A stretch of 64,000 nucleotides of DNA from Psammoneis japonica (Eukaryota): assembly GCA_008632985.1 (NCBI GenBank), contig QPGO01000011.1:620001-684000 (forward strand), in the 5' to 3' direction. Positions 10,836-40,502 of this stretch are shown here, piece after piece. Numbering within the stretch: position 1 is the stretch's first letter; each line of letters starts with the position of its first letter. A program made the position numbers and the translations under genes. The notes under the pieces were generated by a model. The model saw only the letters and a program-made list of their open reading frames with translations, had not been told where the DNA came from and did not search any database.

Positions 10836-11279
10836 ATGGATACTCCTTCTGATGACGATCTTTTCGTGGCGGCTCGGCTCACGGTCGTCTTTCTGCTGCT
10901 GTACTCCTTTACGTTTGTGAATGTATTGGTGACAAAGAAGCGCCTTTTGGGGCAAGCCCGCAAAGAAAACAAAACCTTCAACCGATACACATCGCCACAT
11001 ATGCATGCTGCCGACCGTCTCAATGGAAACTTTTTAGAATGGACTCCGATATTTCTTGGGTTAGTTTGGTCTCTGGCGGCAACGTCAAACCTATCGCCTA
11101 ACTGCGTTGCGGCCGCTTGGACCTACGTTGCGCTTCGAGCGTTGTACATTGTCTTGATTTTAAGATATGGCGTTTCATCGGATGGAATGAGCAAGGCACT
11201 GTGGGCATCCACTATGCCTGGCTATCTTTGTCTCATGTTCATGGCGTCACATGCAATTCGTAAGCTGCTGTTGGTGTGA
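10836..11279 (+). CDS. MAPEG family membrane protein
   Basis: 147 aa with ~4 hydrophobic helices; motifs ADRLNGNFLEW and YVALRALY. Confidence 0.8.
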   Translation: MDTPSDDDLFVAARLTVVFLLLYSFTFVNVLVTKKRLLGQARKENKTFNRYTSPHMHAADRLNGNFLEWTPIFLGLVWSLAATSNLSPNCVAAAWTYVALRALYIVLILRYGVSSDGMSKALWASTMPGYLCLMFMASHAIRKLLLV

Positions 11280-11369
11280 TAGGAACGATCGAGAATCGAG
11301 ACGATGATTTTGTTTTCGGCATAGGAAGCGTAGGAAATATTCCATCGTATGCGCATGATATTCCGCTTC

Positions 11370-12130
11370 AAGGATTCGGCAGATGGGTGAGACTAGCTGG
11401 ACTCCAAGAAAGCTTGCGGTTGGTACTGGGCTTTGGGGCAAGGATAGCGGAAGGATAGCTTTCAAGCCAGTCCATTGACTGGCTTACAATACACATTACA
11501 GATTTCCTGTCTACTATCAGCACGCAAGAACGCTACTCCTTTCTTCCATGCAACTCCTTCCTTCCATTCAATTCACGGGCACTTTTTGCCTGGGGATCGA
11601 GCTTTGTTGTTGGTGCTTTGCAACACTTCCTATGTCGCGGTTTCCAATCTGACAGTCTGCGGGATTCATGCGCCACCTTGGACCTGGTGCGCATTTCTTG
11701 AATTTTGGTTCCATTCGTGGCTCAATTTCGCTACAACTCAAGTACACATCACCTTAGACTACCTGTACATCATATGACGGTGCCGTCATCTTGTTTCCTA
11801 ATATTCTCAGAAACTTCTTGCAATAGTCCACGAACAACAAACCCACGGCCCATGTTCGTGTGTGATCTCGTGAATGTAGTTCTTATTGGCATCTCCCATC
11901 ATTTGGTGACGAAAGCGTTCGTCTCGATGAGCAGATCTGCTGCAGACGCGGGCAAGGACTTGCTGTGGATAAAGTCAAGACTTCGACCAGTTGATGGATC
12001 CACAGCTTACATGAGTGATTCGAAAACCACATTTGTTTTGCCACGGAAACTCATGTCTCGTGTTCTGCATGGAAGCTGCAGGATCTTGTTGTGAATGGAA
12101 AACAATGGCATCACTCAACTTGGACTCTGC
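11370..12130 (-). pseudogene. Decayed MYND-finger gene (paralogue of 30080-30730)
   Basis: Frameshifted fragments LSCSEIEPRMEPKFKKCA...DCQ...SDWKPRHRKCCKA; aligns by eye to 30080-30730. Confidence 0.55.
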
Positions 12131-13776: not shown

Positions 13777-13949
13777 CGTAGTGATTTTGGGGTTGTGCTC
13801 GCCGCCGAAGGCCGAAGTGAAGGTCCTGATTCCAGATGTGCTTTCTAATCTCTTTCTTACTTGGCTTTGATGCGGCAAGGATTTCCTTGCGAAGGTGAAA
13901 TGACCCTCCGACCGTTAGAGTCATTCCAACCGCCAAAAACAATCCCTTT

Positions 13950-15730
13950 TAGGACGACGGCCCTCCTCTCTGTCTGCAGATTGCTGCGATGCCAAGCGCA
14001 CCACCAAAGACACCATCAACACATCGGCCTCCACGACTGTCTCCCCGGGTCCCCTCAACACAACTGATGCTGCTGATGACCCCTCGCCCCTTTGCAACTT
14101 TTTTCCAGTGACTTTTTGCACACAACTTCAATCCCCCCCACCTGCAGAAACTCTCCTGGCGTCTGTGGATCCCACCACCTGAAGCAGCTTCCTTTGTGAC
14201 CTTGGCACTGTGCAACACCCTGTCCAACATGGCATTGCCACTTCCCGCACCTCTGCAGCCAATGCCCATTGGGACAAGTGGCGCCAGCCACTTCCGTGCC
14301 TCTTTGGCCCTCGACCCAAAAAATCCCGTCATCTTTCTCCAAGTGCTCTTGCATGGGCACCACACCCCACTGATGAAAGATGCTGCATGATTGCTGTTGA
14401 CTGGCCAAACATTGTGCGCAGCAGCGGGGTCCCCGGACCCGCACCACACACATCCCAAGGCCAAATGGACATTCCAACCCACCAAGTTCATTTTTACAAG
14501 AAAGAGAATCCACTGCCCAACCAAGAAAAACCGACCCCTGCCACATTTCTCTTTTGGGTCATGAGTGTTGCTGCCCACAGCATGAACCAGGGAACTCAAG
14601 CGGTTGCCAGCATGATCATCTTGGCCTTTTTCTTTTTGCTTTGCCCTGGCAAATGATGTGCTGCCCCACCCCATCTCCAATGTGTGACACCCTTCCAACT
14701 CAGGGACGTTTGTTTGACCATGGGTGGCTTTTGCCTTGGTGTGTCTGCCGTGCTGCCGACAAGCAACTCAGGGCAGCTGCCCTTGGCTTCCTCACTTTTG
14801 CCACCCAGAAGAACAGTGTTCATGGGGAAGTTGCAGGCCATGGCCACCCTCAGCTCTGTCTCCAACCCATGCCCCAGTGTGCCACATCGTCAAGCATCTC
14901 CGACTGCACGGCACTTTGCCCACACACCACTGGGTGCACATTTCCACAATGACATCTGGTGCCGGGGGGTTTCACCCACTGACATCACCAGTCTCCTTTG
15001 CAATGCAGTCATTGCCATTGGACCTCCCTCTGCTGACCTCGGTTTCACAACCTTGGGCATTTCTGCTCAGCGCATGTGTCCGGCTCTCAGGCCAGCGGCA
15101 ATCTGACAAAATGCTTCAGCACTTGCACCTTCAAGCTGAGCTCATTGTGCACAGTTTCACACATGACATCATGTTGTCTGGAGGCAACTTCATCTTGCAC
15201 CCTGCCAATGCCAAGGTTCCCATGGCTGCTCCTGTGGAGCCATTGACCACCAACACAGCCCACCAGCCGGGTCCCGCCCGCCCCCAAGCACTGCTTGCCT
15301 TGTAAAAACTGCTTGCACTTTGGGTGGTTCTGGATGGCCCAGCCATCCAGCTTGGGACTGGAAATGAGGCTTGCTCAGCCCCTCTGCAAAACCATCCCGC
15401 TCCAACCAAGACCTGCTCACAAAGTTCGATGAAGGTGAGGCGACCCTCCAACTGTCAGAGTCATTCCAACCCCCCGTCATGTCAAAACAATTTGAACATG
15501 CTTGTGCAAGGCTTTGAACAACAGCCTCACTGGTGCCTTTCTCTCATTCTTCCAAAGAGCATGGCATCAGCAACCAACCAGACAGTTTGGTCACTCCCAC
15601 CTCTCTTGCCCTCTGGCTGGCCTGGCTGTCAAGCGCAGGACTGGTGGGAATGAGGCTCACCCACCAGCAGCCGCTCAGTGAAACCATCCCACTCCAACCA
15701 AGACCTGCTCCAATCACCCCAGGAAATGCA
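13950..15730 (+). mobile_element. Degenerate tyrosine-recombinase (DIRS/Ngaro-like) element remnant; TpA-depleted island B
   Basis: MIILAFFFLLCPGK (cf. AFFFLLRPGEY), LTFATQKNSVHGEVAGHG and DKMLQHLHLQAE (cf. DxMLRYLH) are tyrosine-recombinase motifs. Frameshifted and nearly TA-free. Confidence 0.65.
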
Positions 15731-16100
15731 GGAGTGCGAACGAGAAGGGCGGCGAAAGCCGCTCCCTTCGGACGATTGCCCTCTACTTGCCGGCATCTAC
15801 CAGCAGCTGCTCTACCACTGCACTGTACACTGTACGGTGCTTAAAGTACTGTAGAGTGGCCAAACCTCCGAAGATATCTCGGAAGAGGGCCCTGCGCCAA
15901 AAACCCATAACGCACTGAAAGACAGACCGTTTCAGTAGAAATTCTACGCACCGGTACACAAGATCCAAGATCTTACTCTATTTGACATGGATGAATAAAT
16001 GAGTTCAAAGACGTCCCCCAGCAGGCAGATAGACCATATCATGAAAGAACGATACAAGTGTATGCCATATAAGGCCTAATAATATGAAAAAGATCTCTCT

Positions 16101-19772: not shown

Positions 19773-20979
19773 ACTTCATTGTTTGTTTACTTGGTCGCTT
19801 CTGCTGTCTATCGTTCTATGTTGCAAGCACCATAGCTGCATGCCTACACGCACAAAGCGAGCGCCACGTGCTGCACATCCAAGTTGCTTTTGTATATTTC
19901 AAAAAGAAGCAACAAACAGTCTCAAACTTCCATTGAGCGGTTCTTCACCAATGCTAGTAGCCGGGCATGTTTGTAGAAGATTGTGATGAAGCCTCAACTT
20001 CCAAATTCAGTTCAGAAAATTTGGATTTTCTGCACCCCACCAAAGACCCCACATCTGAGATCGTCCATTGGACTTTCAACCGAAGGCCCCTCCCATCCGC
20101 ACTTGTTGGATTCAAGTGCTGTTTTAGCTTGTCGGCATGTGCTGACAACTGGCAGAACACATGCATTCACTTTTTTTCATTCTGTTGCTTGTGTTCACAA
20201 TGCTCCTGACCGTGGCTGGGTTTTGCCCCATTGCAATCCATCCTGCCTTTTGGGACACCCCACTTTGCACTTGCCACAGGGCTTGTCAAGACATTCTTGC
20301 TGANNNNNNNNNNGGGGGGGGGGGGGCAAGTTCATGACGGGCCTTGTTGGCAAAGAGCCAACTGCACTTCTTGTTGGCAATGTCAGCACGTCAGCACCAA
20401 TTTTTTCACTGGGTTGCAAAGCAATCCAAGCACATGTCTGGGGACATCCATGATTTGGGTCCTGTTCCTCAAAGCAGTTTTTGCCAATTTCAAAGTGGGT
20501 TTTTGTTGGTCTTGTTGATCACAACATTGCCCTGCTTTCTCAAATCTGGATGCAATGGCAATTGAAAGCTGAAATGTTCCAACTTGAAGATGTGATTTTC
20601 TGTCTCAACAGACAAGAGGGCTCTGTTGTTCACAATTTTTCATTCATTTCCATGTCAAATTCTTTGTGACAGCTGCTGAACATCTTGTGCAGCACTGCAT
20701 GTTGAGCACAAAGAATGATTCCAAAAAAAATTGTTGTCACTTCTTTCAATTTGCAGTTTGCCATTGACGCTCACAGCAAAACAACAAAATGCTGTTTCCA
20801 GGCACCATCCCACCCACTCTGTTTGTGCCATTTTACCAAGTTTGCCAACATGCCATTCTCTTGTCCTTTGTGTGGCTTTAAAAATGATCATGCTGTCTCA
20901 AGTCACATCAGTCATGGACACTGCTTGGCTTCACAGATGCAGTTGGCCATGAGAACAAAGCCTTGTCACTGTCCTGTTT

Positions 20980-21255
20980 TGACAGAAATTGAAGGCAAAT
21001 GGCAAGAATTCAAACAATGACTCCTTGCTGCTTTTTAAACAGCAGATGAGTCTCCGCTCAGAGACCGTTGCAGGAGCCGAAAGACGTGTAAGTCGGCATG
21101 ATCGGGCTACTGTCATCATTCTTGTGAGCCTTGTGGCTCGAAAGCAAACTACATCGCGCGCGAACGCGCGGAACCAAAGCACACAAAACTGTGTGCGGCA
21201 AACTAAACAGCGCGCGATACTTCGCGCGCATCCAAATCCTGTTCAAATCCTGTCA
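20980..21255 (-). repeat. 3' LTR of copia-1
   Basis: Direct repeat of 27803-28078 with 12 substitutions. Confidence 0.97.
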
Positions 21256-24200
21256 CTCCCCAGTTTGCTTGAGGAGCCACAGAAACAGATTCGACTTCGG
21301 ATGGGATGAAGTTCCAGAACATAAGAGGGCGGAGAAGGTCCCAGATTTGGGAGTGACCCCAATGCTTGCTGAGAATGTCAGCAGGATTGCGGGAGCCCTC
21401 GATGAAGTGGAACTCAAGGCAACCAGAGGCAATTGCCTCACGCACACGGTGGAACGATAGTGCGGTGTGTCGCTTGTGTAACTTGGAGTGCGGGATGGTG
21501 GCACTGTCTACAACCGACTTGTTGTCACCGAACATGTAACTAACATTACGGATCGGGACGCCAAGGCAGCGCAGGGTGATGCGCAGGTCGACAATCTGCT
21601 CGACACAATTCCTTGCGGCAACAAATTCAGATCCGTAGGTTGCAGTCTCCACGGTGGCTTGTTTCTTGGAGAACCAATCAGCCGGGAATTTGTTGAGGAA
21701 GTGGAGCATTCCCATGACAGAGCGTCCGGTGAGCATGCAATGGTGCAAGTTTGCATCGACGTAGTGGGTGGCAGTGACGAACTTGCCAAGGGGCGGTGGA
21801 GCGTCCTTCGGGATCATCTCTTCTGCTTCACCACACACGGAATGCATCCATTCATAGGCCGGAGCAGGGAGATCCGAACAGTCGGGCTCTTCCGTACGAA
21901 CGCGGAGAGCACCGTGTCGCATCTTGGAGAGGCACCCACAGACGCGTTTGGCACGATCCAAGTGGCCTTGACGGGGCGCAGCTCGGAAGCTAGAGAGTGA
22001 CATGACAGCCGTGGTAATGTCAATTCGACCAAGGGACACTGCCCATTGGAGTGAACCAACAAGAGACTGGAACTTGTGAATGCCATCGGGTCCCAGTAGT
22101 TCGGAAGTGTCCAGTTCAGGGTGGTCACCCTTCTCTAGAGGTGACAGGGCGTTGGTGGCAGGTTTCTCCCCAAACAATCGGGCGTAGCTGTCGACCATGC
22201 GCTCGATGTACTTGCGCGGAGACAGGCACAAGGTTCCGTCGGGGTCCCGGGAAAAGTCGCAACCCAGATGGAACTCAATGGGTCCCGCACCCTTGAGCTT
22301 GAACTTGCACTTTTCCGTGAGAGTATCGATGAAAGATTGAGGGTCCTTCATGGCAATGGCGAGGTCATCCACATAAACGCCAATGTATTCATAGTGGTCG
22401 CCGTTCCTGCGCATCCAAATGTCGGGTTCGGCGCGGCAGGGGAAGAAGCCTTCAGCTCGCAGGCAGTCGGCGAAGCGCTCGTGCCAGCGGAGACCGGAGC
22501 TGCGAAGTCCATACAGTGCCTTGTGGATGACAAGGATGTGTCCCTCGAGTTTGCCAAATTCGGGTCCAGCTACAATGTAAAGCTTCTCCTTGGTGGTGGC
22601 TTCAAGGCAGGCATTGCCAATGTCGGTGGCCCATGTCTCCAGCTCGTTGAGTTCGGCCAGGAAAATCATCAGCCGAAGGCCACGGAGGGAGACTGCTCCG
22701 GAGTAAACACTGTCGACAGGTACATCCGTGAGGTGCCCGTCGGCTACGAGTCGTGCCTTGTGGCGACCGTCGTGTTTCACGTCGAACACCAGGTGCACTC
22801 GGATCTTCTTGTGTCCCGCAGGAGGAGTGGAAGACTTGAAGGGCCCGCAGTCATGGAAGACTTCGTATTCGTCGAGTTGGTCCATCTCGAGATTAGTTGC
22901 GTCTCCCCACTTGCGGTTGCCGTTGCGTTCGTCTAGTGACATGGCGTGTTTGTAGTTCCGGGGAACTTTGTATCCGTACTTGTAGCGAGGTGCAGTGCGG
23001 AAGGAGCGAAGCTTGGCTTGGTTGGCCATGCGAAATAGCTTCTTTTGGCGCCTCGCGATAGTGCGGAACCGCTTCCAGCCATCCGTGTCGAGGAGTCCGT
23101 TCTCTCGTGCATAGATGGCACAGGTGACGGGGTCGTCCTTGGCGATGATGGCAAGAGGCTCGGACGTGATCTCCCCACTTTCCCATTCAAGCATGATGTT
23201 GTAGCTTGAGCCTTTCCAGGTTGGGTCGTGAGGCTTCAGAGGTCCTTCGTGTGATGCGATGCGTCGAAATTTCCAAATGGTGGTGTCTTCGTCTTCTTGC
23301 TCAATGTGATTCATGATGTCATTGCAAGCAAGGACTTCCTCGTATTCGTCATTGTTGACAGAGCAGACGAACTTAGTGAGCTCGGGATTGCCGTTCACTT
23401 TCCATTCGTGGTCTTCGACGGCCTTGACGATGCGAGCTCTGTGGCGTTGTCCATCCTCTTGTGGCTGCATGAGGAAGGTACGTCCAATGATGTCTTGCGG
23501 ATCGAAAACTGGCATCTTGGGTGTCCTGATCTCCCCATCAGTAGAATCGACGGGGTTGTCGTCATGGCGAGATTTGATGATGGGTTCAGGTGGCTCCCCA
23601 TCAGGAGGATCAAGACGCAGGTTTCGAACGGCAGGATCGGGGCAGCGGAGCGAACGTTGGACCGGGAGGATCTTTTGAGTCTCGTCAGATAGGATCTTGA
23701 AGGTCATCTGGTGGCCGACGTGCTCAGCAATGCCAACAAAGCGTCCACGCAACTCACGGGATTCGGACGGCCAATCGGAGTCATCGAGGTGGAAGTGCAC
23801 TGGTTCCCACCAGTGAAAGCGAAGCAATGGGCTGATGTCCGGGGTGGATCCAGTGAGAGTCTCGAGGGGCGTGCGCCAGTGGAGACGTGGGGACGCTGTG
23901 TGGTTGAGCATGAAGCACACGCACATGAGCGCCAGGAGCCATGTGTGGGCGGGCGAACCAAAACGGTCCATGACAGTGTTCGCCATGCGCTTCACGGTCT
24001 GGTGTCGACGTTCGGCAAAGTTTTGGTGTTGCTGGTGAGGCTCACTTTGCCAGCTGGAGATGAAGAGGGCGCGCAGGATCCCGAGCACTTTGTTGCTGAT
24101 CTCAACTTGAGCACGGTCGCTAATGAGTTTGGATGGTGCACCACGTTCACGGATCTGATCCTCGAGTGTGTTGACAAACTCTTTGTCCGTCTTAGTGCCG

Positions 24201-26876
24201 TAGACGTCAGTGACGGTAGACTCGGTGCCAACAAACAGTTGGGCGCTGGTGCAACCAGAGTCGACGGCCGGGGTGTCGGCAAAACGGTGTCAGTGGCGAC
24301 AGGCTCGTTGCGGCGGTGCACATTAAGGGCGGGGTTGGGTGATTTGTAGGCCTTGCGAAGGTGTGCACCGGCGGGCATGCGGGCGTACTGCGTGGTGCAG
24401 TCAAAAGTACGACGGACCGCATCGGCAGGTAGGAAGCCAAAGCAAGGCCGAAGAGACTCGAAGGGGGGGTCCTTGGGCTTCACAGTGCGCTCCGGAGGTG
24501 GAACGTCAACGCCCGTGGGGTCACTCGCATGCAGATGACACTCGTAGAACACGTCGTCGTTCGGAATGAGGTGATCATCGAGGGCGGACGCGTGATCGTC
24601 AGACAAGGAAGCGGACAAGATGGTCTCGTTGACAACGACACGGTGACGGCAGTTGCCGCATTCGTCAAATGGGTTGGCAGTGGGATCGTCCTGCAGGTCA
24701 GAGATCGCGTCGCACCACTGGTCGTCGTCAGTGACAGAGTGATCGAGGACGGAAGGGTCCCATGTGTCATCACCGGTGAGGATGACATGGGGCAGGGTGT
24801 CCCATTCGGCGTCAGTGCAAGGGCGCATGGCAACATAAGGCAGGCCAGCCTTGATGTCAATGGGGATGACATGGCCATCAGGAGTGGCAATACGTTGCAA
24901 GCCGTTGGGCACCTTGACAGAGCGATCGTTGACATCCTGTTTGCACCATTCGAGCTGGCCGCAGGAATGGATGGTCTTGCCCTTTCCCGTGCATGCGCTG
25001 ATGGAGGATGGCGATGACGGGACCACGCTGGGTCTCAATGACGGCACCAGCGGTGACAATGGGGATGTCCACCAATTGATGATCGTCAATGCCCTGAACG
25101 TCGACTTGGCGAGAGGTGCGTGCGATGACGCGAACGTCGTCGCCAGCAATGCCGCCGTTGGCCCCACGATCGACTAGAGCGCCAGTGCGTGTGGAGCGAT
25201 GAGCAGAGGCAGAGTAAATGACATTGTGGTTGTCAACGCGGCGGCAAGTGCGGCCGTTAAGTTCCATGTTATCTGCAGAAGCTGGCGGGGTAGAGGAAGC
25301 GGCGGATGGCCCGGTCGACTGGCATTGGGGGCTTGGTTAGGAGACAACAGACGTTGCAGATCACCGGGTGGCAGTGGCTTGCGCTTGGTGAGGTGCGCCA
25401 GGATGGGATCATCCGAAGTGGCGTCCACATGTGCAGCGGAGTCACCACAGTCAGCAGGAGTCGTGTTGGACAAGTTGACATCACCGTCACTCCCAAGGTG
25501 TTGGTCGTGAAGGTTGGCCGTAACAGACTCATGGCAGTTGCTGGCTCGCGGGTTGCGGGGAGGCGGGCGAGAGTGCTCAAGGATGATCGCCTTGGAGGAA
25601 TCGGGCAACGAATCCCAGAGCCGTTGGTGGTCGGGAGGGAGACGTCTCCATTGGACACCGGTGAGGCTGGGACCACGGGTGTGGGCAGCATTGGCTTGAA
25701 GGACGTCAACGTCACTGTCAATGTCGTAGAACACATCGTCGGACGGTTCCTCGGAGCAGACGTCGTGGGCGTGTGTGGCGCGTCGGGGAGCTCGAGGTGT
25801 CGTCTTGGGTTGAAACGTGCTGTCGCACTGAGCTGCCGCGGAGAGGAGCAAGCCACAGCATTGATCGCATGTGAGGCTCTTGCCACTCTGCGTACGATGC
25901 TGATCAGCTTGGTTCTTGACAGCACGGAGTTCCTCGACAGGGTGCACGGCATTCTCGAGCATGACGCGCTTCTGTCCTTCAGAGAAGTGGTCGCTGGCGG
26001 GGATGAGTGCCTCGCACTTGCGCAACTGATCTTGCCAATGAAGGATGAACCCGTGGGTCGGACCGTTCCAAGTGCCATCACCAAGACGTGCGGTGGTGAG
26101 GTACGTGAGCAGGGTGGAGGACTCGATGGATGCACGGGTGGAGGCAAGCGCGCATTCAGACAAGGAGCGGCAGACGGTCTGTGCGTCAGAGGACCCCACA
26201 TTTTCGCGAATGAGAGCCTTGCCCTTGTCGGTGAGAAGGATGCGTTCGAAGACGGCGAACATGTGCTTTTGCTGTTCAGCAAAGAGCAGTTTGTCTTCGG
26301 GGCTGGTCGGTTTGTACGACGAGTCTAGAATGCACTCGACGTCTTGGGCACGGGCTTGTGCCACAAGTGAGGTGTGCCAAGTGTGCCACTGCTTGTCGGA
26401 TTTGAGAGCCGTGAAAGCGGTGGGATCACGCTTGATGCCTCGCTTGAAGTCTCGCACCGGGTCGCGTGCCTTGGTCGGGTTGGTGACATGTGGAGGTGCA
26501 AGGGGTGAGCTGCCGATGGACACAGAGGACATGCAGTCCGGGCTGAGGCGGCAGGCAAGGAACTCGTCATGCGTGAACAAAGAGGAGTCGTTGGCAACGT
26601 CAAGACCTTTGTGTGCTTTGACAATGTACAGACTGGGCTGGTGCTGCCAACATGTTCTTATAACCACGAGGCAAAGGGATTGCATTGGTGCCGTTGTCGC
26701 ACACAAGCGAGTCGATTTGGGACGGCATGAACGTGAACAGTTCCTGATGCGAGTCCGTGCCGTCTTGGGCCAAAGCCAAACGAAGAGGACTCCCAGCACC
26801 TTGGGCAAGCACGGTTCCAACAACGTGCTCGAAACCATCGATTTGTTGCTGACGAGTGAGAACCATGGTAGACAAA
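21203..26876 (-). pseudogene. Copia-1 gag-pol polyprotein (frameshifted)
   Basis: gag (RDFKRGIKRDP...), protease ALVDRGANGG, integrase SEPHQQHQNFAERR, RT KALYGLRSSG and YIGVYVDD, RNase H YVDA...GDNKSVV...NPADILSKHW. Confidence 0.9.
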
Positions 26877-27802
26877 AGTGGTGTCAGGACAATCAATTCT
26901 GATTGGGAAGCGAAGGTAGACTTGAAACTCGGGTGAGAACAGACTTGACTTGAAATGGACTTGACTTGAAATCTTGAACTATCTTAAAATCAGAAGTCGC
27001 CGGGCTTTGCTATCCCGTTCGTTGTTGAGTGCTAAACTTCCCATCCGGTCCGTAGAGTTGTGCCGGCACGTCCGAACCCGCAGCCAGTGGCGCTTTGGGT
27101 TGCTTGCGAGCGGAGCAGCGGGTTGTAAACCCCTGCAGGCAAGCTGACCAGAGGTGGACAAGACCCCCGAACCGTTCTTATTTTATGTCGGTTGGATTTC
27201 CCGATCAGGCTGGCCAGTTGACGCAGGCGTTGGGCGCTGTGGACGAACGAACAAACGCGGGAAAAACACCCTCGCCCCAACGCAGGCTGCAATCACGGCT
27301 GCTTGCTCTCACAGTCGTCCTCGTGGACCTAGCAGAACTGTAGAGCACCAGCAGTCCGGGGTAGATCAGGTACAATGGACTCGGTGTGCTTGTAGAGTGG
27401 CAGCAAAACCGCATCCGAAGAGTGGGTACAAGTTCTTGGCCGTGAAGATATGCATATATGTATGTCTTCAGCGACGAAGGTCCTTGAATGTGTAGGGTTC
27501 TTGACCGTTAACCGATGAATGGGTATATCAAGGGATGAGGATCAAGGATAGACTTGGATATGACCGTTGAATGTATGTCTTCAGCGATCAAAGGTAGTAT
27601 AATCAATCCAGATATTCAGCGGTAAGGAGACTTGACGGTGACGTTAAATTCCTGCCGATGCCTGGTATTGAACGCGCGTAGACTTGCCGATGTATGTAGA
27701 ATATATACGGAGGTCCACGCAGAATTGAAATAGCGTCGTCGGTAAATCAACGACGACGATGGCGGTTGCTCAATGGGTTGACAATGAGCAAGACTGTTAA
27801 TC

Positions 27803-28078
27803 TGACAGAAATTGAAGGCAAATGGCAAGAATTCAAACAATAACTCCTTACTGCTGTCTAAATAGCAGATGAGTCTCCGCTCAGAGACCGTTACAGGAGC
27901 CGAAAGACGTGTAAGTCGGTATAATCGGGCTACTGTTATTATTCTTGTGAGCCTTGTGGCTCGAAAGCAAACTACATCGCGCGCGAACGCGCGGAACTAA
28001 AGCACACAAAACTGTGTGCGGTAAACTAAACAGCGCGCGATACTTCGCGCGCATCCAAATCCTGTTCAAATCCTGTCA
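27803..28078 (-). repeat. 5' LTR of copia-1
   Basis: Direct repeat of 20980-21255; retains 16 TpA sites. Confidence 0.97.
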
Positions 28079-28199
28079 TGTTTGCCACAAGGGTGGGCTG
28101 GGCTTTGATTTGGAAGATTCTGCATTTGCTCATCTTTCTTGGCATTGCAATGGAGGTGGCTCTGATGAAACATGACACACTCATCCAAAGCAATGAGAA

Positions 28200-29000
28200 A
28201 GAGCATCCAACAGCCCATGAGGGCTTTGCAGTCAATGGGAAACAGCTCAAAGGTTGATCCCTTGGTCAGTTGGTCAGCAAGTTGACCAGCAGAGCTGATT
28301 GGCTTGATCTTGTTGTCCAAATGTTCCACTTTCAAGCAATGACAGTGACATGGAATGCCAACATGCTTGGTCCTGGGGGTGAGCTTTGGCATGTGTGCAA
28401 GCTGGAGGCAGGCAGCAATGTCTTTGTGCACAACTGAGGGAGGCAAGCTGGTTGAGACAATGAGAGACTTGTCAGTGCCTGCACTGGTGAGAGCAAAGGC
28501 CATGGAATGTGTTGCACAGGTGGCATTTTGGGTGGGCTGCACATGAGCATGCACATCAATTCTTTTTTCAAAATTTCATGAGCTGGGGTGAGATTTTGCA
28601 TGCCTTGGGAGAGTGCGGCAATTGCAGAGAGCATTGCAAGGGTCCACAGCTTGGACAACCAAAGAATTGGATGCCTGCTTTGGCAAATGACACAGCCGGT
28701 GCAAGACTTGACACTTGTGAGATCTTGTCCATTTTTCAACACCAAAAAGTCCTGCAAAGTCTGCGCCCACATGATGATCAACTTGCTGCTCCTCAGTTGG
28801 CTCTCCAAAATCAGCCCCTTGTCTGCAGCATCCTTGTGGCAATGCAGGACTTGCTTGGTGGCAGCAGTGCAGGATGCCCTTGGATGATTGCAAGAAAAAT
28901 GAGCAACTTGATGGGACGTGCAGGCGACATCTGGGCAACTGTTACAGCCAGATGCAAAATTGGCAATTGACCTGTGATTGCAGCAGACTGCCCGTGCAAA
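28200..29000 (-). mobile_element. Older copia RT/RNase H remnant adjoining the copia-1 insertion
   Basis: PDVACTSHQVAHFS, GADFAGLFG, PKLTPRTKHVGIPCH and QLADQLTKG; heavily degenerate. Confidence 0.75.
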
Positions 29001-29094
29001 AGAATGCAGCCACTGCAGCAGCCACTGCAGCAGCAATCAATGTCAAGGTGTGATTGCTGGAAAACACATGTGACAGTGTCAAAGCAGTGTGGAC

Positions 29095-29320
29095 CTTGTC
29101 AGCAGGAAAACCAAACACCAAAGCAGGTCCACTGACAGCAAATGTGGTGATGGAGTTGGGTTCTTTTTGATTGAACCAGCCTGTCATGGAAGAAGCACAA
29201 CAAAAAACAGCATCCAGTTTTTTTGTGAGACAGAAAGCATCAAAAACATGTGGGGAGGGCAGTTGATGCTCAAGTGTGTCAATTGTTGCAGAGACAAAAC
29301 ATTTTGGTTGCCTCATGTCC
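29095..29320 (+). repeat. TpA/CpG-depleted copy of a dispersed sequence also present at ~42225-42340 and ~43640-43735
   Basis: AGCAGGAAAACC...GGAGTTGGG...GATTGAACCAG...AAGCACAACAAAAAA is shared with 42.2 kb; TTTTGTGAGACAGAAAGCATCAAAAA...GACAAAACATTTTGGT is shared with 43.65 kb. Confidence 0.75.
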
Positions 29321-30079
29321 CAAGTCTCAGCACAGTTTCCCAACCAGCTTGCATGTCAGCTTCCATGGGTGCAACCACCACACAAGGAACACAATGGCAG
29401 CACTCATGTTTTGGCACATGTTGCAATGAATGAAGCTGGAGCTTGGGGCACAGCACTCCTGTTCTCCCCAGAGTGCTGACATGTGCTCTCTGCTTCCTTT
29501 TCTTTTGGCAAGACCCTGTCAAAAACCAGGTTGATGTCCCACTTGAGAAGAGAGTGCAAAAAAAACCACACCAACTCATTAAAGTCCTGCAGTGAAAGAG
29601 CAAATTCTCAGCACAGAGTTGCTCGTGGTGCTGAATGGTGGTGCAAACAAACACAAGCATGCCACCAGTGTCCAAATGAGCTGGGGTTTGCTGGTTTCTG
29701 AGGTCAGTGAAGAACAAGAACCTCACTTTTTTGTCTCATTCTCCAGCAAGCTGCTGCTTTGGCAGCCCTTTGACTCCCATTCTGAGTGGCGAGTCTTGCC
29801 AGTGCATCCATGTGTCACATTGCATGTGATGAGAACAGCATGGTGAATGCTGTCACTGCAATGATGGCTGCAACAGAAAAATTGAGATGACTTTCAACTC
29901 AAATTCTGCTTGGTGCACAGCCTGTCCATTGAACTTGAAATGAAGAAAGGTCCATGGTGTCACACATGATTTGGGCACTGTTGTTGGTGTTTCAGGAGTG
30001 ATCAAGAGTCAAGATGTTGTTTTTGTTTTCAGCACAGGAAGAGGAGGAGATGCTCCATTGCACACACATGGCACCCCAC

Positions 30080-30730
30080 TTCAAGGAATGGACAGATGGG
30101 CAAGACTGACTGGACTCCAAGAAAAGCTTGCAGCTGATGCTGGGCTTTAAAACGAGGGTGGCTTGCTGTTCTCAGTGCTCAAAACAGATTTCCAGTCTGC
30201 TGCAATGTCAGCAAGCAAGAGTGCTGCTCTTTTCTTTCACACAATTCATGGACACTTTTTGCCTGAGGATTGAGCTTTGATGTTGGTGCTTTGCAACACT
30301 TTTTCCAGTCTGGGGAGCAACGGTGTGCCACCATGGTGCATTTCTTGAACCCAGGTCCCGTGCATGGCTCAATTTTGCTGCAACTCAAGCACACGTCACA
30401 TTGGACTGCCTGCCCATCACCATGTGACAGTTCTCTCATTTTTTCCCCAACATTCTCAGAATCTTCATGAAGAACAGACCTGTGGCCCATTTTTGCACAT
30501 GTCTCATGAGTGCAGTCTCAGCAACATTTCCCACCAGTTGACAGAAGTGTTCATCTCAATGAGCCAGGTCTGCTGCAGAGGCAACTTTGACCAGTTGATG
30601 GATCTGACATGAGTGACTCAAGAACTGTGTTTGTTTTGCCACAGAAAACTCATGTCTTGTGTTCTGTGTAGAAGCTGCCAGATCTTCTTGTGAGTGGCAA
30701 ATGATGGCATTGCTCAACTTGGACTCTGCT
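30080..30730 (-). pseudogene. TpA-depleted paralogue of the MYND pseudogene at 11370-12130
   Basis: Colinear blocks, e.g. CTGGACTCCAAGAAA, GTTGGTGCTTTGCAACACTT, GACCAGTTGATGGATC and CTCAACTTGGACTCTGC. Confidence 0.75.
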
Positions 30731-33230
30731 GCAAAAAAATTTTGGGATTTCTTGGACTTTGAACAACAAGTTGTGTGCAGCCTCCTCCCCCTTTTGAGCA
30801 CAAACATGTGAGCTTTCAAAAAAGGGCCATCTTGTTGAATTGCTGAATGATTGCAGTGGCTGCCACAGATGTCACATCAACAGTTTCTTCATCTAAATCC
30901 ATTTGAAGATCACAGGAGGGCAAGCTGTACATGAGAGCTTGAGAGAGTGCCCAGTTGACACTGAAGGAGTCCTGTTCAAACAAACATGCGGCAAACCATC
31001 CAACACACTCATTGTCCTCTGCATCTTCAATGCTGTCATCCACAAACTTGCACCTGCTGCAGTGATTCTCAGCCTTTTGTCTTTCAACCCCAGTCTTCTT
31101 CATTTGAACACTTCATCCAATGCTCACAAATGGTTTCAGCACAGATGCCAAGGTTTTTGTCCATGTCTGGAAACTGACGATGCTGCTGTGTGTGGTTGTT
31201 CCAAATGAGCCCAATTGGAGTGGGGCACTCAAGATGTCATCCAATCTGCTCAAAACCAACTTTGTTTTCCCATGAGGATTGCAACCATTCAGACAGAAAC
31301 AAGCCGGGCTTGGCAACAACAACACACAGTCTCCATGTGAAAGCTTTCAAACCCCTCACTTTTTGCAGCAGAGACACCAGCTTGAGAATTCTTGCCACAC
31401 CAGCACAATGAGATGACCAACAAGTGGCCACGACTCCTGACTGAGGGCTCTCTTGCCAATTTCTCCACAATGTGTGCAAAATCCACAACAGATGAATGCC
31501 ACTCAACTTGTGAGAAGGCAGGATGAGCCCCTCCAGAAAAAAAGAAAATTTCCAAAGCCTTTTCTTCACAGTCATCTCCTGACACAACCAGGAAAATCTG
31601 GTGTCCCCACACAACTGAAATGGCACAATCCAAAGCCTGTTGAGGCAATGGACAAATTGTGTCAGTCCCAAGGTGAGGGAAAGTCATGGCTTTTTTTAAG
31701 AGTCATGCCGGGAAATGTGGGCACGTCCACAAGCATCATCGCACATGATGAAGAAGTCCTCTGCTGGCAAATCCCTGTGACTTGCTTTTTGAAGATTGAC
31801 CTTTGCCAGTGCAAAGCTGACAGTTGAGAGGTTTTGTTCAGCATGAAGATGACAACCGTGAGCTTTTGTTTGGCTTGAAGCTGCCACGATGAAATTTTCC
31901 TGGAACGTTTGACATTTTGAAATTTGCCAGAAACGAGGGACAGATGCATTGGGGAAAGGGCCCAAGGGGGACTGCCGACTTATTTTTTCCGCATTTGTCC
32001 TAAAATTGGCGATGTGTTTGAATGCGTTCATTTGCATTGTCAATTTTAAATGCAAGAATTGTTCGATCGCCCACGAAAACAAGAACATCACGCACCGCGA
32101 TTGAAGCACAACGATGACGGCAATTGCGCTGTCTCTCAAAATTGGCCCGGTGGCACAAGGGACAAAAGCACACAAATCAATCTGCACCACATGACGACAA
32201 TGAAACCAATGAGTGTCCCTCGTGAGGTGACACTTTGCAACTCACCGCTCGTCGCGAACATTGTCATTGTCGCTCGTGATTTTGTCGTGTCATTTTCTGT
32301 CGCGACACGTCAAAAATGCAGAAAAACCCGGAAAAGACGTGCGGAAAAAATGAGCCAATGGGCCGCCTTGTCTGTCTGTCGCATTGTGCACGCAGCGAAC
32401 ATGACAGCAACACAACCTGCAGCATGCATGCAACACAACAGCATCAACACCTCTGCATCATGCAGTGCAGTTGTGAGAAGATCACATGACTGCGATCAAC
32501 ACAGGCGCGGAACATGCCTTTGGGGGCCCAGCTGCGAGGAATGGAACTTTCCAACCGGAAGGATTTGGTCCATTCCCAGTGGAACGGGCAGACCTCGTTG
32601 ACAAGATTTTGTGACAGGCAGACCCATGGAAATCGACTCACATCAATGGATGCAAAGGAGCTGGGAAGATGACTCTGCTGGTGCAACTTGGTGAGAAACT
32701 AAGCTCGAAAAACAAGGAAGTTTACTTTTTTGACAGCGCAACAGATTTAAACCGAGAATCTTCCATCACTTTCGTGCGAGAATTGGTCCATTCCAAGAGG
32801 GAAGCTTTCATTCTGGTTGACAAGACTCAAACAATGTAGATGCTGCTCCCTTTTTCATTCTCCTCAAAAACAAAGACAGCCATCAAATTGTGACAATCGG
32901 CGCCAGCATTCCGGAATTCCAAACAGCATCTGCAAGATTCACACTCAAAATTGGCGCCGAACGTTTGTTCTTGGGCTCACCGGAAGAGCTTGAAAGCAAA
33001 GGGGTCATCAGTTGTTTTTCAAGCAAAGCAACGGTGGTGGACGCACAGAAGATCCGTGACCTTCTGATTTGTCTTTGCTCGTACGTTGGTGGTCACATCC
33101 ATCCGCTCATGTGGCTGGAGGAGTGACTCGTCCCCAGACTAGAACGCGAGTCAGTGGCCCAAGTGGCAGAACACTTCACATCACCCAGATTCCGTCAGGA
33201 AGAAGATTTCAAGCTTGTGTCTGAGCGAAC

Positions 33231-33701
33231 AGTCAAAGCTCGCATGTCCACGCAGCTCCGACTGCCTTCCTAACGTGTCGACTGGATGTCCACTCCAGAT
33301 CGATGCCTCAGGCAGAATGCAAGCAGACAGAATGCACCAACGAGCAGCAACGAGCATTTGGTCTTTCACAAAAGTGCCAGTGACCAAATTGCAAGCTGCC
33401 TAGACTGAATCTGCTGAATGCACCCAAACAGAGGTTGATCCGCAGGTTTGCACCAGAGACCAGTGCAAACTTCAGGGTTGGCCACATTCACAACAATCAT
33501 CCAAATGCTGCTGAACCAATCTGTGGTTGGTCCAACATCTGTGCAACACCTGTGATCTCCAAAGCACCGCCCATGATCCCCAAAGCATTCGGCTTGAGAA
33601 TCGAGTCGACGTGGCGCGAAAAGAATTTCAACAAGAATTCCGACTGACAGAAGCACAGACACAACAGAGAATCTGGGTCGGTGGACAGATGAACCATGAC
33701 T
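33231..33701 (-). repeat. 3' LTR of copia-2
   Basis: Direct repeat of 40503-40973; differences are mostly TG/CA and CG/TG swaps. Confidence 0.93.
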
Positions 33702-39700: not shown

Positions 39701-40502
39701 CGAACTTGGTTGAAAGTCTGGCAACGCAGCAGGCCTTGCTCTTCTGGGCGGAAGAAACGTGGTGGGAGCGATGCTGATTCGGAGACGTTGGACTGGAGTT
39801 GGGAGTTTCTAGCCTGGACCAATCAGCCTTGGGTTTCCCACCAGTCCAAGCAACTTTCTCAGTGGAGCCAATGGAGACAACCCCCCCCCATCTTGGGAGC
39901 CTTGGGTTTGTAGACCTTTGTCTTCGGAATCGCCACGGCTGCCACAGCAGCCATGGCCTGAAGAGTGCGACGTTCGTCGTCCGTCACACCAGAGCTTGCG
40001 GCGGGCTCGTCATCATCCGAGTCGTCATCCGAATCGTCTGGGCGATGTTCCAAGGGCGGAACAGGCTTGTTGTCTGGGTCATTGGGGTCCTGAGGTGGTG
40101 GATTATCCTCCGGTGGAGGTTGATCCTCAGGAGGCTGGTCCTCAAACACTTCGGGGTCGTCAGCCATGTCCGACAGCGCGCTTGAAGCTGTCAAGTTGGG
40201 CCAGTCATCTGGGATGTTCTCAATCAAGGAGCACGAGCTCGGAGAACTCTCTTGGGTCTCAGGAGGGCCACGGGGTGGAGCAGGGCCTGAGATGGTGCAC
40301 GCGCAAAATCAACAACAAACCTTCTGGTGGAACCAGCCATCCAGCTGACAGAGTCAGGCGCAGCACTTGATGTCAAGAGCATGGAGCGCAGCCAGTGAGG
40401 AGCGCTGACAGCATCAGAGCCATAGATGGGGTTGCTCTGGTTTGGGCGTCCCCAACCGGAAGTGTAGAACGTGTTAAGTTGCCCCAATTGGGCAAACCAA
40501 CC

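What the first reader, a model, noticed from the sequence alone, without database searches (positions are those of the whole stretch)
20980..28078. Candidate new genome-defence system: repeat-targeted TpA->TpG/CpA (A-to-G) hypermutation, the reverse of fungal RIP
Seen: the two 276-bp LTRs of copia-1 (perfect TGTTT TSD) differ at 12 sites, and ten are TpA losses in the left LTR. TA->TG occurs at 21019, 21027, 21070 and 21100; TA->CA at 21040, 21097, 21114, 21117, 21175 and 21199. That is 10 of the 16 TpAs in the right LTR, while none of ~20 CpGs differ. Because TpA is palindromic, both outcomes are one event: A->G in 5'-TA on either strand. Established: LTR pairs are identical at insertion; 5mC deamination gives CG->TG/CA and fungal RIP gives CA->TA, and neither removes TpA. 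Inference: a context-specific mutagenic process acts on repeats, for example a DNA adenine deaminase, a mutagenic adenine or thymine modification, or error-prone repair in heterochromatin. I know of no description of this in diatoms but cannot search the literature.
Basis: partly seen in the sequence, partly recalled or inferred. Interest (0 to 1): 0.97.

Follow-up and report, generated by a model that had tools for sequence, protein, structure and literature searches.

The report
TpA-erasing hypermutation in diatom transposons
In this diatom DNA, transposon-rich stretches have had nearly every TA step turned into TG or CA by a context-specific mutation process so far described only once, in a 2026 preprint on an unrelated alga, and a young retrotransposon here shows it in progress.

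Summary
The two 276-nt LTRs of the Copia element at 20980-28078 differ at 12 sites. Ten of them are TA in the right LTR and TG or CA in the left; no CpG differs.

Five independent tests show the direction is loss of TA:
- Conserved tyrosines (codons TAY) read Cys or His in copia-1 and in a second, TA-free Copia.
- That second element's LTR pair has 14 adjacent TG-versus-CA double mismatches.
- A paralogous pair inside the window has 26 TA in the normal copy and none in the other (12 TG, 9 CA).
- 40% of the window lies in sharp-edged blocks with TA observed/expected 0.05.
- Other family copies carry CA or TG where this copy has TA.

Three of 49 metagenome contigs encoding relatives show the same signature, so it is not an artefact of this assembly. 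Host genes identify the organism as a diatom.

The process is not new to science. A 2026 bioRxiv preprint reports TpA-only A:T>G:C hypermutation of integrated viruses in the chlorarachniophyte Bigelowiella natans. Eight full-text searches found no diatom report.

The enzyme, the targeting rule and a defence role remain inferences. I file it as a new member of a very recently described kind, with high interest.

The parts
20975..20979 (.). Left copy of the TGTTT target-site duplication of copia-1
   Evidence: Read directly. The empty-site contig in run X1 joins 20974 to 28079, leaving one TGTTT.
20980..21255 (-). Copia-1 window-left LTR, which is the element's 3' LTR and the partly hypermutated copy
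   Evidence: It has 6 TA against 16 in its partner. Ten sites are TG or CA where the partner has TA. The bases at 21033 and 21035 are private to this LTR among family copies.
21256..27802 (-). Copia-1 internal region (integrase/RT polyprotein ORF 21206-24289, gag side upstream), partly hypermutated
   Evidence: RVT_2 E = 1.7e-27. TA o/e is 0.36 with CG o/e 0.96. At 26 Tyr columns conserved in 56 homologues it has Y16, C6, H2, F2, and it has 0 Tyr at 24 conserved Cys/His columns. TA o/e rises to 0.71-0.94 in 27001-28000.
27803..28078 (-). Copia-1 window-right LTR, which is the element's 5' LTR and is unmutated at TpA
   Evidence: It has 16 TA (o/e 0.84) and carries TA at all ten discordant sites.
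28079..28083 (.). Right copy of the TGTTT target-site duplication
   Evidence: Read directly.
20125..20979 (.). Block C, left part: TA- and CG-poor DNA into which copia-1 inserted
   Evidence: 3 TA in 855 nt (o/e 0.05), CG o/e 0.12. It is contiguous with 28079 onward in the empty-site contig.
28084..33229 (.). Block C, right part before copia-2: TA- and CG-poor DNA of unidentified origin
   Evidence: For 28079-33229: 16 TA in 5151 nt (o/e 0.05), CG o/e 0.30. 28079-32025 is confirmed by a 4617-nt contig of run X1 with 8 other letters. No Pfam family was found in its ORFs.
29950..30729 (+). Hypermutated paralogue of 11237-12130
   Evidence: 66.5% identity in plain letters and 82-93% in purine/pyrimidine coding. 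Of 26 TA in the normal copy, 0 are kept (12 TG, 9 CA, 5 other). Of 37 CG, 1 is kept (17 TG, 13 CA).
11237..12130 (+). TA-normal paralogue in gene-rich DNA, used as a proxy for the unmutated state
   Evidence: Local TA o/e is 0.45-0.75 and CG about 1. It has no ORF of 150 aa or more.
33230..33702 (-). Copia-2 LTR (window-left)
   Evidence: It pairs with 40502-40974 at 90.9% identity in plain letters and 99.6% in purine/pyrimidine coding.
33703..40501 (-). Copia-2 internal region, fully TA-erased
   Evidence: RVT_2 in 34736-35632:- and zf-CCHC in 37760-39115:-. The whole element has TA o/e 0.06 and CG o/e 0.61. The RT ORF has no Tyr in 299 aa. Both conserved Tyr (KSLYG and YVDD) read Cys.
40502..40974 (-). 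Copia-2 LTR (window-right)
   Evidence: The pair has 43 differing positions: 14 adjacent TG/CA double mismatches, 8 CG against TG/CA, 1 TA against TG/CA, and 6 other. Only 0.9 double mismatches are expected from CpG decay.
40975..41812 (.). Block C tail, ending at the next gene-like ORF
   Evidence: 1 TA in 838 nt. An ORF starts at 41819.
2504..6485 (.). Block A: TA/CG-poor DNA, origin unidentified
   Evidence: 9 TA in 3982 nt (o/e 0.03), CG o/e 0.17, TG/CA o/e 1.9. No Pfam family found.
13950..15784 (.). Block B: TA-poor DNA, origin unidentified
   Evidence: 3 TA in 1835 nt (o/e 0.03), CG o/e 0.35.
54700..59990 (.). Block D: TA-poor DNA containing a decayed cyclin-like ORF
   Evidence: 19 TA in 5291 nt (o/e 0.06), CG o/e 0.42. 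Cyclin_C is found in 54925-55578:-, with 1 Tyr in 218 aa.

Best explanation
A mutational process specific to the palindromic dinucleotide TpA acts on chromosomal DNA after integration in this diatom. It converts TA to TG or CA about equally often, which is one A:T>G:C transition on either strand. It is confined to sharp-edged islands between genes that hold retrotransposons and unidentifiable decayed DNA. It runs almost to completion (3 TA per kb against 38 per kb elsewhere). It is faster than, and separable from, the CpG>TpG/CpA decay seen in the same islands. Copia-1 is a recent, still polymorphic insertion caught partway: its body and 3' LTR are hit and its 5' LTR is not.

Shown: context, direction, post-integration timing, regional confinement, and occurrence in independent assemblies.

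Inferred: the process is enzymatic, most simply deamination of adenine to hypoxanthine in 5'-TA on either strand. It is directed by chromatin state or small RNAs to silenced or foreign DNA. It disables elements by missense changes (Tyr>Cys/His, including the RT YVDD motif) and by destroying TA-containing signals. It is the same kind of process as the TpA hypermutation reported in Bigelowiella natans.

The confidence given is for the shown part (a real, post-integration, TpA-specific loss process). I put the adenine-deaminase step alone at about 0.45.
For: - **LTR pair of copia-1.** 10 of 12 differences are TA against TG/CA. 10 of 32 TpA positions changed, against 0 of 113 other A/T positions and 0 of 42 CpG positions.
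- **Direction, copia-1.** At 26 Tyr columns conserved in 56 homologues, copia-1 has C at 6 and H at 2, while each homologue has 0-1. At 24 conserved Cys/His columns it has no Tyr.
- **Direction, copia-2.** Both conserved Tyr read Cys, and there is no Tyr in 299 aa.
- **Copia-2 LTR pair.** 14 adjacent TG/CA double mismatches, against 0.9 expected from CpG. Identity is 99.6% in purine/pyrimidine coding.
- **Paralogue pair.** 26 TA become 0 TA (12 TG, 9 CA).
- **Other family copies in runs X1-X4.** 16 of the 22 printed best-supported A>G/T>C differences fall on a TpA of the window copy, against 7.9% expected. The TA at 22704/22705 is CA in some contigs and TG in others. The site at 21018/21019 is TA, TG or CA in three copies.
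- **Blocks.** 25,697 nt (40% of the window) have TA o/e 0.049 and TG/CA o/e 1.7. The rest has TA o/e 0.575. Edges are sharp and abut ORFs.
- **Not assembly-specific.** A 4617-nt contig of run X1 reproduces 28079-32025 with 8 other letters. Of 49 metagenome loci encoding copia-1 relatives, exactly the three TA-poor ones have Tyr>Cys/His at 13/16, 15/17 and 10/19 conserved Tyr columns; the other 46 have 0-1. Two of them (94.5% identical) differ by 21 TG/CA doubles and 25 TA-against-TG/CA sites, with 97 CpG kept.
- **Separable from CpG decay.** Copia-1 has CG o/e 0.98 with TA o/e 0.38. Six metagenome loci have CG o/e of 0.3 or less with TA o/e 0.52-0.72.
- **Recent insertion.** An X1 contig joins 20974 to 28079, a precise empty site.
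- **Precedent.** TpA-only A>G/T>C mutations were measured in mutation-accumulation lines of B. natans.
Against: - Only contigs could be laid, not raw reads, and the library type of X1-X4 is not on record. They come from one sample that may be the assembly's own source. Read-level confirmation at the ten sites is therefore missing.
- At 21027 the abundant family variant has G like the left LTR (loose ends). Taken alone, this fits an ancestral TG as well as a parallel hit.
- The 10:0 split between two LTRs of one element is unexplained. Gene conversion of the left part from another mutated copy cannot be excluded, although 21033 and 21035 are private to this LTR.
- Blocks A, B, D and the part of C before copia-2 have no recognisable transposon domain. 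61 ORFs were scanned and only Cyclin_C passed its cut-off.
- 28248-31517 is covered at about single-copy depth, and a paralogue in gene-rich DNA is untouched. Targeting by repetition is therefore not shown.
- No enzyme is identified, and A-lesion and T-lesion models predict the same sequence outcome.
- A preference for C after the edited A (11 against 2, p = 0.02 uncorrected) did not replicate in the metagenome pair.
Confidence: 0.87

Rival explanations
1. Classical RIP-like direction: the right LTR gained TA by C>T at CpA/TpG, so the left LTR is closer to the ancestor.
For: Read from left to right, the pair shows 10 C>T changes among 44 CpA positions and nothing else. At 21027 the abundant family variant shares G with the left LTR.
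Against: Conserved Tyr are replaced by Cys/His and never the reverse: 0 Tyr at 24 conserved Cys/His columns. The sites at 21018/21019 and 22704/22705 show three states (TA, TG, CA), which needs TA as the common ancestor. TG/CA double mismatches occur in copia-2 LTRs. Blocks with 3 TA per kb cannot arise from TA gain elsewhere. Intact relatives have TA o/e 0.52-1.02, like the right LTR (0.84) and unlike the left (0.35).
Confidence: 0.02
2. Base-calling or polishing artefact: a DNA modification at TpA (and CpG) in heterochromatin is misread, so the genome really has TA.
For: The sequencing technology of the assembly and of runs X1-X4 is not on record. Only contigs could be inspected, not reads.
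Against: A clean 4617-nt k-mer contig at depth about 62 reproduces the TA-free flank with 8 other letters. A strand-dependent miscall would split it into variant paths. The same signature occurs in 3 of 49 loci from other metagenome assemblies. The B. natans preprint reports the same changes as de novo mutations in mutation-accumulation lines (its sequencing methods section was not read). Random resolution of miscalls would also create CG from TA, yet CG is depleted rather than enriched.
Confidence: 0.04
3. Editing before integration: RNA-level (ADAR-like) or cDNA-level editing during retrotransposition produced the A>G changes.
For: ADAR favours a U before the edited A (stated in the preprint's Discussion). 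The targets include retrotransposons.
Against: Both LTRs of one insertion are copied from one template, so pre-integration editing cannot make them differ at 10 sites (copia-1) or resolve the same TA differently in the two LTRs 14 times (copia-2). A non-retroelement, non-coding paralogue and kilobases of unidentified flank are equally affected.
Confidence: 0.02
4. Same mutational outcome, different chemistry: the primary lesion is on thymine, for example a hydroxylated or otherwise modified T made preferentially in TpA, as recalled for 5-hydroxymethyluracil in dinoflagellates. It mispairs with G and gives T>C.
For: TA>CA on one strand is indistinguishable from TA>TG on the other, so the sequence allows it. 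Dinoflagellates, Rhizaria and diatoms all belong to SAR. The TpA preference of 5hmU is recalled and comes from no call; one search shows only that 5hmU papers concern dinoflagellates, not diatoms.
Against: No report of such a modification in diatoms was found in the library. 5hmU pairs with A as a rule (recalled).
Confidence: 0.12
5. No dedicated editor: error-prone repair synthesis in heterochromatin (a Pol-eta-like WA>WG signature, recalled) causes the A>G changes.
For: The islands also show CpG decay, which would create T:G mismatches that recruit repair.
Against: Pol eta's motif is WA (recalled), but 0 of 47 ApA positions changed against 10 of 32 TpA positions in the copia-1 LTRs. Copia-1 lost TA with no CpG change at all (0 of 42), so no deamination trigger is visible. 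Almost no transversions occur (1 of 12 differences; copia-2 LTRs 99.6% identical in purine/pyrimidine coding).
Confidence: 0.06
6. Selection rather than mutation: TA is avoided because of a TA-cutting nuclease, RNA stability or codon use.
For: TA is mildly under-represented in the genes of this window too (o/e 0.575).
Against: The affected elements are decaying, with catalytic Tyr lost and frames broken. LTR copies of one insertion diverge at TA. Depletion reaches o/e 0.03 in non-coding DNA with no counter-selection visible.
Confidence: 0.01

Closest known systems
TpA hypermutation of integrated viral DNA in Bigelowiella natans (Mettrop et al., bioRxiv 10.64898/2026.01.13.699255; abstract, passages and Discussion read; supplements not seen)
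   Same: The changes are almost exclusively A>G/T>C and only at TpA, giving TpG or CpA according to strand. They are confined to particular non-host regions. The long-term footprint is clusters with TpA depletion and CpA+TpG enrichment, and reverse-transcriptase and DDE domains are enriched among TpA-poor coding sequences. The authors compare it with RIP and propose an adenine deaminase.
   Different: The host there is a chlorarachniophyte (Rhizaria); the window is from a diatom. The measured targets there are an integrated giant virus and a virophage; here they are LTR retrotransposons, a non-coding paralogue and unidentified islands. Depletion here is far deeper (o/e 0.03-0.06 against Rho 0.45 for their viral region). 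Here it co-occurs with CpG decay. There a per-generation rate was measured; here only the footprint and LTR pairs are available.
Fungal repeat-induced point mutation (RIP)
   Same: Both are dinucleotide-specific, transition-only and regional, hit integrated repeats on both strands, and leave a strong dinucleotide footprint.
   Different: RIP is C>T at CpA and creates TpA and stop codons. This process destroys TpA and removes TAA/TAG stops, so it inactivates by missense. Dependence on duplication, a premeiotic stage and a RID-type enzyme are untested here. Diatoms do have RID-related DNMT4 genes of unknown function (PMC9998398, passages read).
5-methylcytosine deamination (CpG decay) of methylated transposons
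   Same: It produces TG/CA from a palindromic dinucleotide on either strand. It is present in the same blocks: 37 CG become 1 in the paralogue pair.
   Different: It cannot remove TpA. In copia-1, 0 of 42 CpG positions changed while 10 of 16 TA were lost. Six metagenome relatives show CpG decay without TA loss.
APOBEC and ADAR editing of retroelements
   Same: These are deaminase-driven, context-dependent hypermutation of retroelements. ADAR prefers U before the edited A.
   Different: They act on cDNA or RNA before integration and so give identical LTRs. Here the LTRs of one insertion diverge, and non-retroelement DNA is affected.

Membership tests
TpA hypermutation of non-host DNA (B. natans type) | Substitutions almost exclusively A>G / T>C | tested here: met
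   10 of 12 LTR differences in copia-1. Copia-2 LTRs are 99.6% identical in purine/pyrimidine coding against 90.9% in plain letters.
TpA hypermutation of non-host DNA (B. natans type) | Mutated A preceded by T (TpA only), giving TpG or CpA by strand | tested here: met
   10 of 32 TpA positions against 0 of 113 other A/T positions. The outcomes were 4 TG and 6 CA, and 12 TG and 9 CA in the paralogue pair.
TpA hypermutation of non-host DNA (B. natans type) | Clusters of TpA-depleted, CpA+TpG-enriched sequence in otherwise normal DNA | tested here: met
   Four blocks totalling 25,697 nt have TA o/e 0.049 and TG/CA o/e 1.7; the rest has TA o/e 0.575.
TpA hypermutation of non-host DNA (B. natans type) | Directly measured, episodic rate elevation (about 1000-fold) in mutation-accumulation lines | not testable with these tools
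   No lines or raw reads were available. Indirectly, 62% of TA against 0.8% of other positions changed since insertion.
TpA hypermutation of non-host DNA (B. natans type) | Targets are integrated viral genomes | tested here: not met
   The targets here are Copia LTR retrotransposons and unidentified DNA. The preprint also reports RT and DDE domains among TpA-poor coding sequences, so this is a difference of main target rather than an exclusion.
Fungal RIP | C>T at CpA, raising TpA and lowering CpA/TpG | tested here: not met
   The direction is the opposite.
Fungal RIP | Triggered by sequence duplication, with both copies mutated | tested here: inconclusive
   Copia-1 belongs to a very abundant family. 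However, one member of a paralogue pair is untouched, and the two LTRs of one element differ 10:0.
5mC deamination / CpG decay | Changes at CpG only | tested here: not met
   0 of 42 CpG positions changed in the copia-1 LTR pair. CpG decay is present as a separate, slower layer in the older blocks.
Pre-integration APOBEC/ADAR-type editing | Changes shared by both LTRs of one insertion | tested here: not met
   The LTRs differ at the edited sites.
Pol-eta-type WA signature (motif recalled) | A>G at both ApA and TpA, with some transversions | tested here: not met
   0 of 47 ApA positions changed against 10 of 32 TpA positions.

The most novel reading that the evidence does not exclude
Diatoms (Stramenopila) and chlorarachniophytes (Rhizaria) share an ancient, chromatin-guided DNA-editing arm of genome defence. 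It erases TpA from silenced or foreign DNA, faster than and independently of cytosine methylation. It is carried out by a natural enzyme that makes A:T>G:C changes in double-stranded chromosomal DNA at 5'-TA. Comparative genomics across diatoms that do and do not show the footprint would identify that enzyme.
Probability: 0.3. Interest if true: 0.92.

Novelty: new member of a known kind. Interest (0 to 1): 0.78.

Why it matters
- **A second major lineage.** If confirmed, a mutational process reported once, in a single 2026 preprint on a chlorarachniophyte, also operates in diatoms, an ecologically dominant and genetically tractable group. There it runs to near-complete erasure of a dinucleotide over tens of kilobases.
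- **A route to the enzyme.** Its presence in two SAR lineages allows phylogenetic profiling for the enzyme. A natural TpA-specific A:T>G:C editor of chromosomal DNA would interest both genome-defence biology and base-editing technology.
- **Dating of insertions.** LTR-divergence dating in such genomes is badly biased. Here 62% of TA sites changed against 0.8% of other sites since insertion.
- **Annotation.** TA-free DNA loses TAA and TAG stops and so yields long spurious ORFs. Decayed transposons escape domain searches.

Tried and rejected
- **Expression.** No RNA holder is listed among the sequencing runs, so nothing can be said about expression.
- **Raw reads.** Only contigs could be laid, and the library type is not on record.
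- **Extended sequence context.**
  - In the stricter pass (45 events with conserved flanks from three pairs), C after the edited A was 11 against 2 (p = 0.02, uncorrected for four tests).
  - The independent L034/L036 pair shows no such bias (3 of 24 events have C at +1 on the edited strand, and 3 of 24 have G at -2, its mirror on the other strand). I do not claim a TAC preference.
- **Identity of blocks A, B, D and the part of C before copia-2.** Pfam at E up to 0.05 on 61 ORFs gave only Cyclin_C above its cut-off and four sub-threshold chance-level hits. A self-comparison in purine/pyrimidine coding found no further paralogues.
- **Copia-1 homologues as outgroup for copia-2.** They are too distant (23-27% identity), so copia-2's own homologues were fetched.
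- **Taxon.** The protein atlas gave no useful taxon for the histone deacetylase. The homologue search did.
- **Earlier findings of this scan.** There is nothing on this genome or sequence. Three phage dinucleotide findings do not bear on this case.
- **Target-site duplication of copia-2.** I did not establish one.

Full report
**1. The observation**

The repeat search finds one direct repeat pair in 20000-29000: 20980-21255 and 27803-28078, 276 nt each and 96% identical. The alignment shows 12 mismatches and no gaps. The flanks carry TGTTT on both sides.

The left LTR has TG at 21019, 21027, 21070 and 21100 and CA at 21040, 21097, 21114, 21117, 21175 and 21199, where the right LTR has TA. The remaining two differences are at 21033 and 21035.

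The right LTR has 16 TA and the left has 6; each has 21 CG. After collapsing strands, 10 of 32 A/T positions inside TpA changed by transition. None of 113 other A/T positions and none of 42 CpG positions changed (Fisher p = 7.8e-8). All ten changes lie in one LTR (binomial p = 0.002).

Reverse transcriptase (RVT_2) is encoded on the minus strand. The mutated window-left LTR is therefore the element's 3' LTR.

**2. The surroundings change the picture**

The window as a whole has TA observed/expected (o/e) 0.35. This is not uniform. Profiles in 2-kb and 500-nt steps, and a list of TA-free gaps, show four sharp-edged blocks:

| Block | Coordinates |
|---|---|
| A | 2504-6485 |
| B | 13950-15784 |
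| C | 20125-41812, interrupted by copia-1 |
| D | 54700-59990 |

- Together the blocks hold 25,697 nt, 40% of the window.
- They contain 77 TA (o/e 0.049; 3.0 per kb), have TG and CA o/e about 1.7, and CG o/e 0.42.
- The other 31,204 nt, excluding copia-1, have 1189 TA (o/e 0.575; 38 per kb) and CG o/e 0.97.
- Block edges abut long ORFs of TA-normal genes.
- Copia-1 sits inside block C and is intermediate: TA o/e 0.38 and CG o/e 0.98.

**3. Direction of change**

Five tests agree that TA was lost.

(a) *Conserved tyrosines in copia-1.* Tyr codons are TAY; TA>TG gives Cys and TA>CA gives His.
- I aligned the copia-1 polyprotein ORF with 56 homologues. These were the hits of 900 aa or more among the 120 listed; the 64 shorter ones were dropped.
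- At the 26 columns where at least 80% of homologues have Tyr, copia-1 has Y at 16, C at 6, H at 2 and F at 2.
- At 5 conserved Cys and 19 conserved His columns it keeps all 24 and never has Tyr.
- Each of the 56 homologues has 0 or 1 Cys/His at those Tyr columns.

(b) *A second Copia.* Copia-2 has LTRs at 33230-33702 and 40502-40974, RVT_2 and a zinc knuckle, and lies on the minus strand.
- Its TA o/e is 0.06.
- Its 299-aa RT ORF has no tyrosine.
- I compared it with 99 of the 150 best hits of an exhaustive profile search, keeping those that span the domain. Both strongly conserved tyrosines, in KSLYG and in the catalytic YVDD, read Cys.
- Two conserved Arg read Cys and Trp, as CpG decay predicts.

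(c) *LTR pair of copia-2.* It has 43 differing positions in 473 nt.
- They comprise 14 adjacent double mismatches of TG against CA, 8 CG against TG/CA, 1 TA against TG/CA, and 6 others.
- From the CpG sites still visible, only 0.9 such doubles are expected from CpG decay.
- The doubles are therefore ancestral TA resolved independently in the two LTRs after insertion.
- In purine/pyrimidine coding the pair is 99.6% identical, against 90.9% in plain letters.

(d) *A paralogue pair.* Sensitive self-BLAST found 11237-12130, in TA-normal gene-rich DNA, paralogous to 29950-30729 in block C.
- Of 26 aligned TA in the normal copy, none survives in the block copy: 12 are TG, 9 CA and 5 other.
- Of 37 CG, one survives: 17 are TG and 13 CA.

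(e) *Other family copies.* Contigs of runs X1-X4 hold very many copies of the copia-1 family: 15,342 contigs were laid for X1, with 885 transition places against 117 transversion places.
- Among the 29 best-supported differences printed inside copia-1, 22 are A>G or T>C. Of these 22, 16 fall on a TpA of the window copy, while only 7.9% of its A lie in TpA.
- The TA at 22704/22705 is CA in some contigs and TG in others.
- At 21018/21019 the right LTR has TA, the left TG, and the abundant variant CA (loose ends).
- One observation points the other way: at 21027 that variant has G like the left LTR.

**4. Is it real DNA?**

- A 4617-nt contig of run X1 (depth about 62) aligns to 20400-20974 and continues directly at 28079-32025, with 8 other letters in 3947 nt.
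- This confirms the TA-free flank in a k-mer assembly of reads.
- It also shows a precise empty site with one TGTTT. The copia-1 insertion is therefore polymorphic, or hemizygous, in that sample.
- The limits are that the run's library type is not on record, that it may be the assembly's own sample, and that raw reads could not be inspected.

Independent support comes from other assemblies.
- A scan of metagenome contigs with the copia-1 protein returned 49 loci.
- For 46 of them TA o/e is 0.52-1.02 (median 0.72). The other three are L036 at 0.13, L034 at 0.27 and L014 at 0.31.
- Exactly these three have Cys/His at 13 of 16, 15 of 17 and 10 of 19 conserved Tyr columns. The other 46 have 0 or 1.
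- L034 and L036 are 94.5% identical. They differ by 21 TG/CA doubles and 25 TA-against-TG/CA sites, while 97 CpG are shared.
- Six other loci show strong CpG loss (o/e 0.3 or less) with normal TA. The two decays are therefore separable.

**5. Organism**

The best named relatives of the histone deacetylase at 51483-52502 are diatom proteins at 77-86% identity: Thalassiosira pseudonana, Conticribra weissflogii, Chaetoceros, Minutocellus, Mayamaea, Nitzschia and Pseudo-nitzschia. Long uninterrupted host ORFs fit an intron-poor genome.

**6. How it most likely works**

Shown:
- The process acts on integrated DNA, because LTRs of one insertion diverge.
- It is specific to TpA.
- It hits either strand about equally (4:6 and 12:9).
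- It produces almost only transitions.
- It is regionally bounded.
- It outpaces CpG decay. Copia-1 has CG intact and TA halved; copia-2 has CG o/e 0.61 and TA gone; the oldest blocks have both gone.
- It can differ sharply within one element. The 3' LTR has 10 of 16 TA hit and the 5' LTR none, and TA o/e rises to 0.7-0.9 over the element's 5' kilobase.

Inferred:
- An enzyme makes the lesion. Adenine deamination to hypoxanthine in 5'-TA is the simplest chemistry, and it is what the B. natans authors propose.
- A lesion on the T of the palindrome predicts the same sequences and cannot be excluded.
- Targeting probably follows chromatin state rather than repetition as such. A paralogue in gene-rich DNA is untouched, and part of block C is now single-copy at 85% likeness.
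- The consequences differ from RIP. TAA and TAG stops disappear instead of being created. Inactivation is by missense, including Tyr>Cys/His at the catalytic YVDD. Loss of TA-containing promoter and polyadenylation signals is presumed, not tested.

**7. Comparison with what is known**

- Eight full-text searches found one description of this signature: bioRxiv 10.64898/2026.01.13.699255. I read its abstract, passages and Discussion; its supplements were not available.
- In mutation-accumulation lines of Bigelowiella natans, an integrated giant virus and a virophage mutate about 1000-fold faster than the rest of the genome.
- Those mutations are almost exclusively A>G/T>C, all at TpA. They occur only in some lines.
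- TpA-poor clusters, and coding sequences enriched for reverse transcriptase and DDE domains, occur elsewhere in that genome.
- The word 'diatom' does not occur in that text. No search returned a diatom report.
- Fungal RIP has the opposite direction. CpG decay, pre-integration APOBEC/ADAR editing and a Pol-eta-type WA signature each fail a defining feature (see the membership table).
- Diatoms carry RID-related DNMT4 genes of unknown function (PMC9998398, passages). These might bear on the CpG layer but not on TpA.

**8. Verdict**

- The window shows that the LTR pair is the visible tip of a process that has erased TA from 40% of this stretch.
- It is not categorically new, because of the 2026 preprint.
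- It appears to be the first evidence in diatoms. Here it acts on LTR retrotransposons, with a far deeper footprint than in B. natans, and it is also visible in environmental assemblies.
- The enzyme, the targeting rule, the reason for the 10:0 asymmetry between LTRs, and the identity of blocks A, B and D remain open.

Noticed in passing
window 20974/28079 junction: A contig of run X1 joins 20974 directly to 28079 with a single TGTTT. This is a precise empty site, so the copia-1 insertion is polymorphic or hemizygous in that sample.
   Followed up: partly
window 54925-55578 (-): A cyclin-like ORF (Cyclin_C, E = 2.7e-5) lies inside TA-poor block D. It has 1 Tyr in 218 aa, and Cys stands where I recall cyclins having Tyr (ELSVCKCFFVKCKAS). 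It may be a host-gene copy that was hypermutated.
   Followed up: partly
window 21256-27802 and runs X1-X4: The copia-1 family is extremely abundant in the sample. 15,342 contigs were laid in X1, and the summed word depth is about 1000 times that of the single-copy flank. Three small runs (X2-X4) hold only this element out of the 19.6 kb laid.
   Followed up: no
window 13950-15784 (block B) next to ORF 12445-13914 (-): The TA-free block starts 36 nt beyond the end of a 489-aa Cys-rich ORF. It continues on the same strand with a 272-aa ORF. Whether the block is a decayed part of that gene or a separate insertion is open.
   Followed up: no
window 20304-20313: A run of 10 N (an assembly gap) lies inside the left part of block C.
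   Followed up: no
L005, L026, L033, L045, L046, L047: Metagenome relatives of copia-1 with CG o/e 0.13-0.27 but TA o/e 0.52-0.72. Their hosts show CpG decay without TpA erasure.
   Followed up: partly
window 44861-45225, 6922-7543 and 8855-9012: Short local direct and inverted repeats (80-190 nt, 81-95% identical) in TA-normal DNA.
   Followed up: no
TA-normal part of the window (31,204 nt): Even the gene-rich DNA has TA o/e of only 0.575 with TG/CA at 1.2. The 'normal' paralogue differs from its block partner by 15 TG/CA double mismatches. A low-level action of the same process outside the blocks is possible but was not tested.
   Followed up: no
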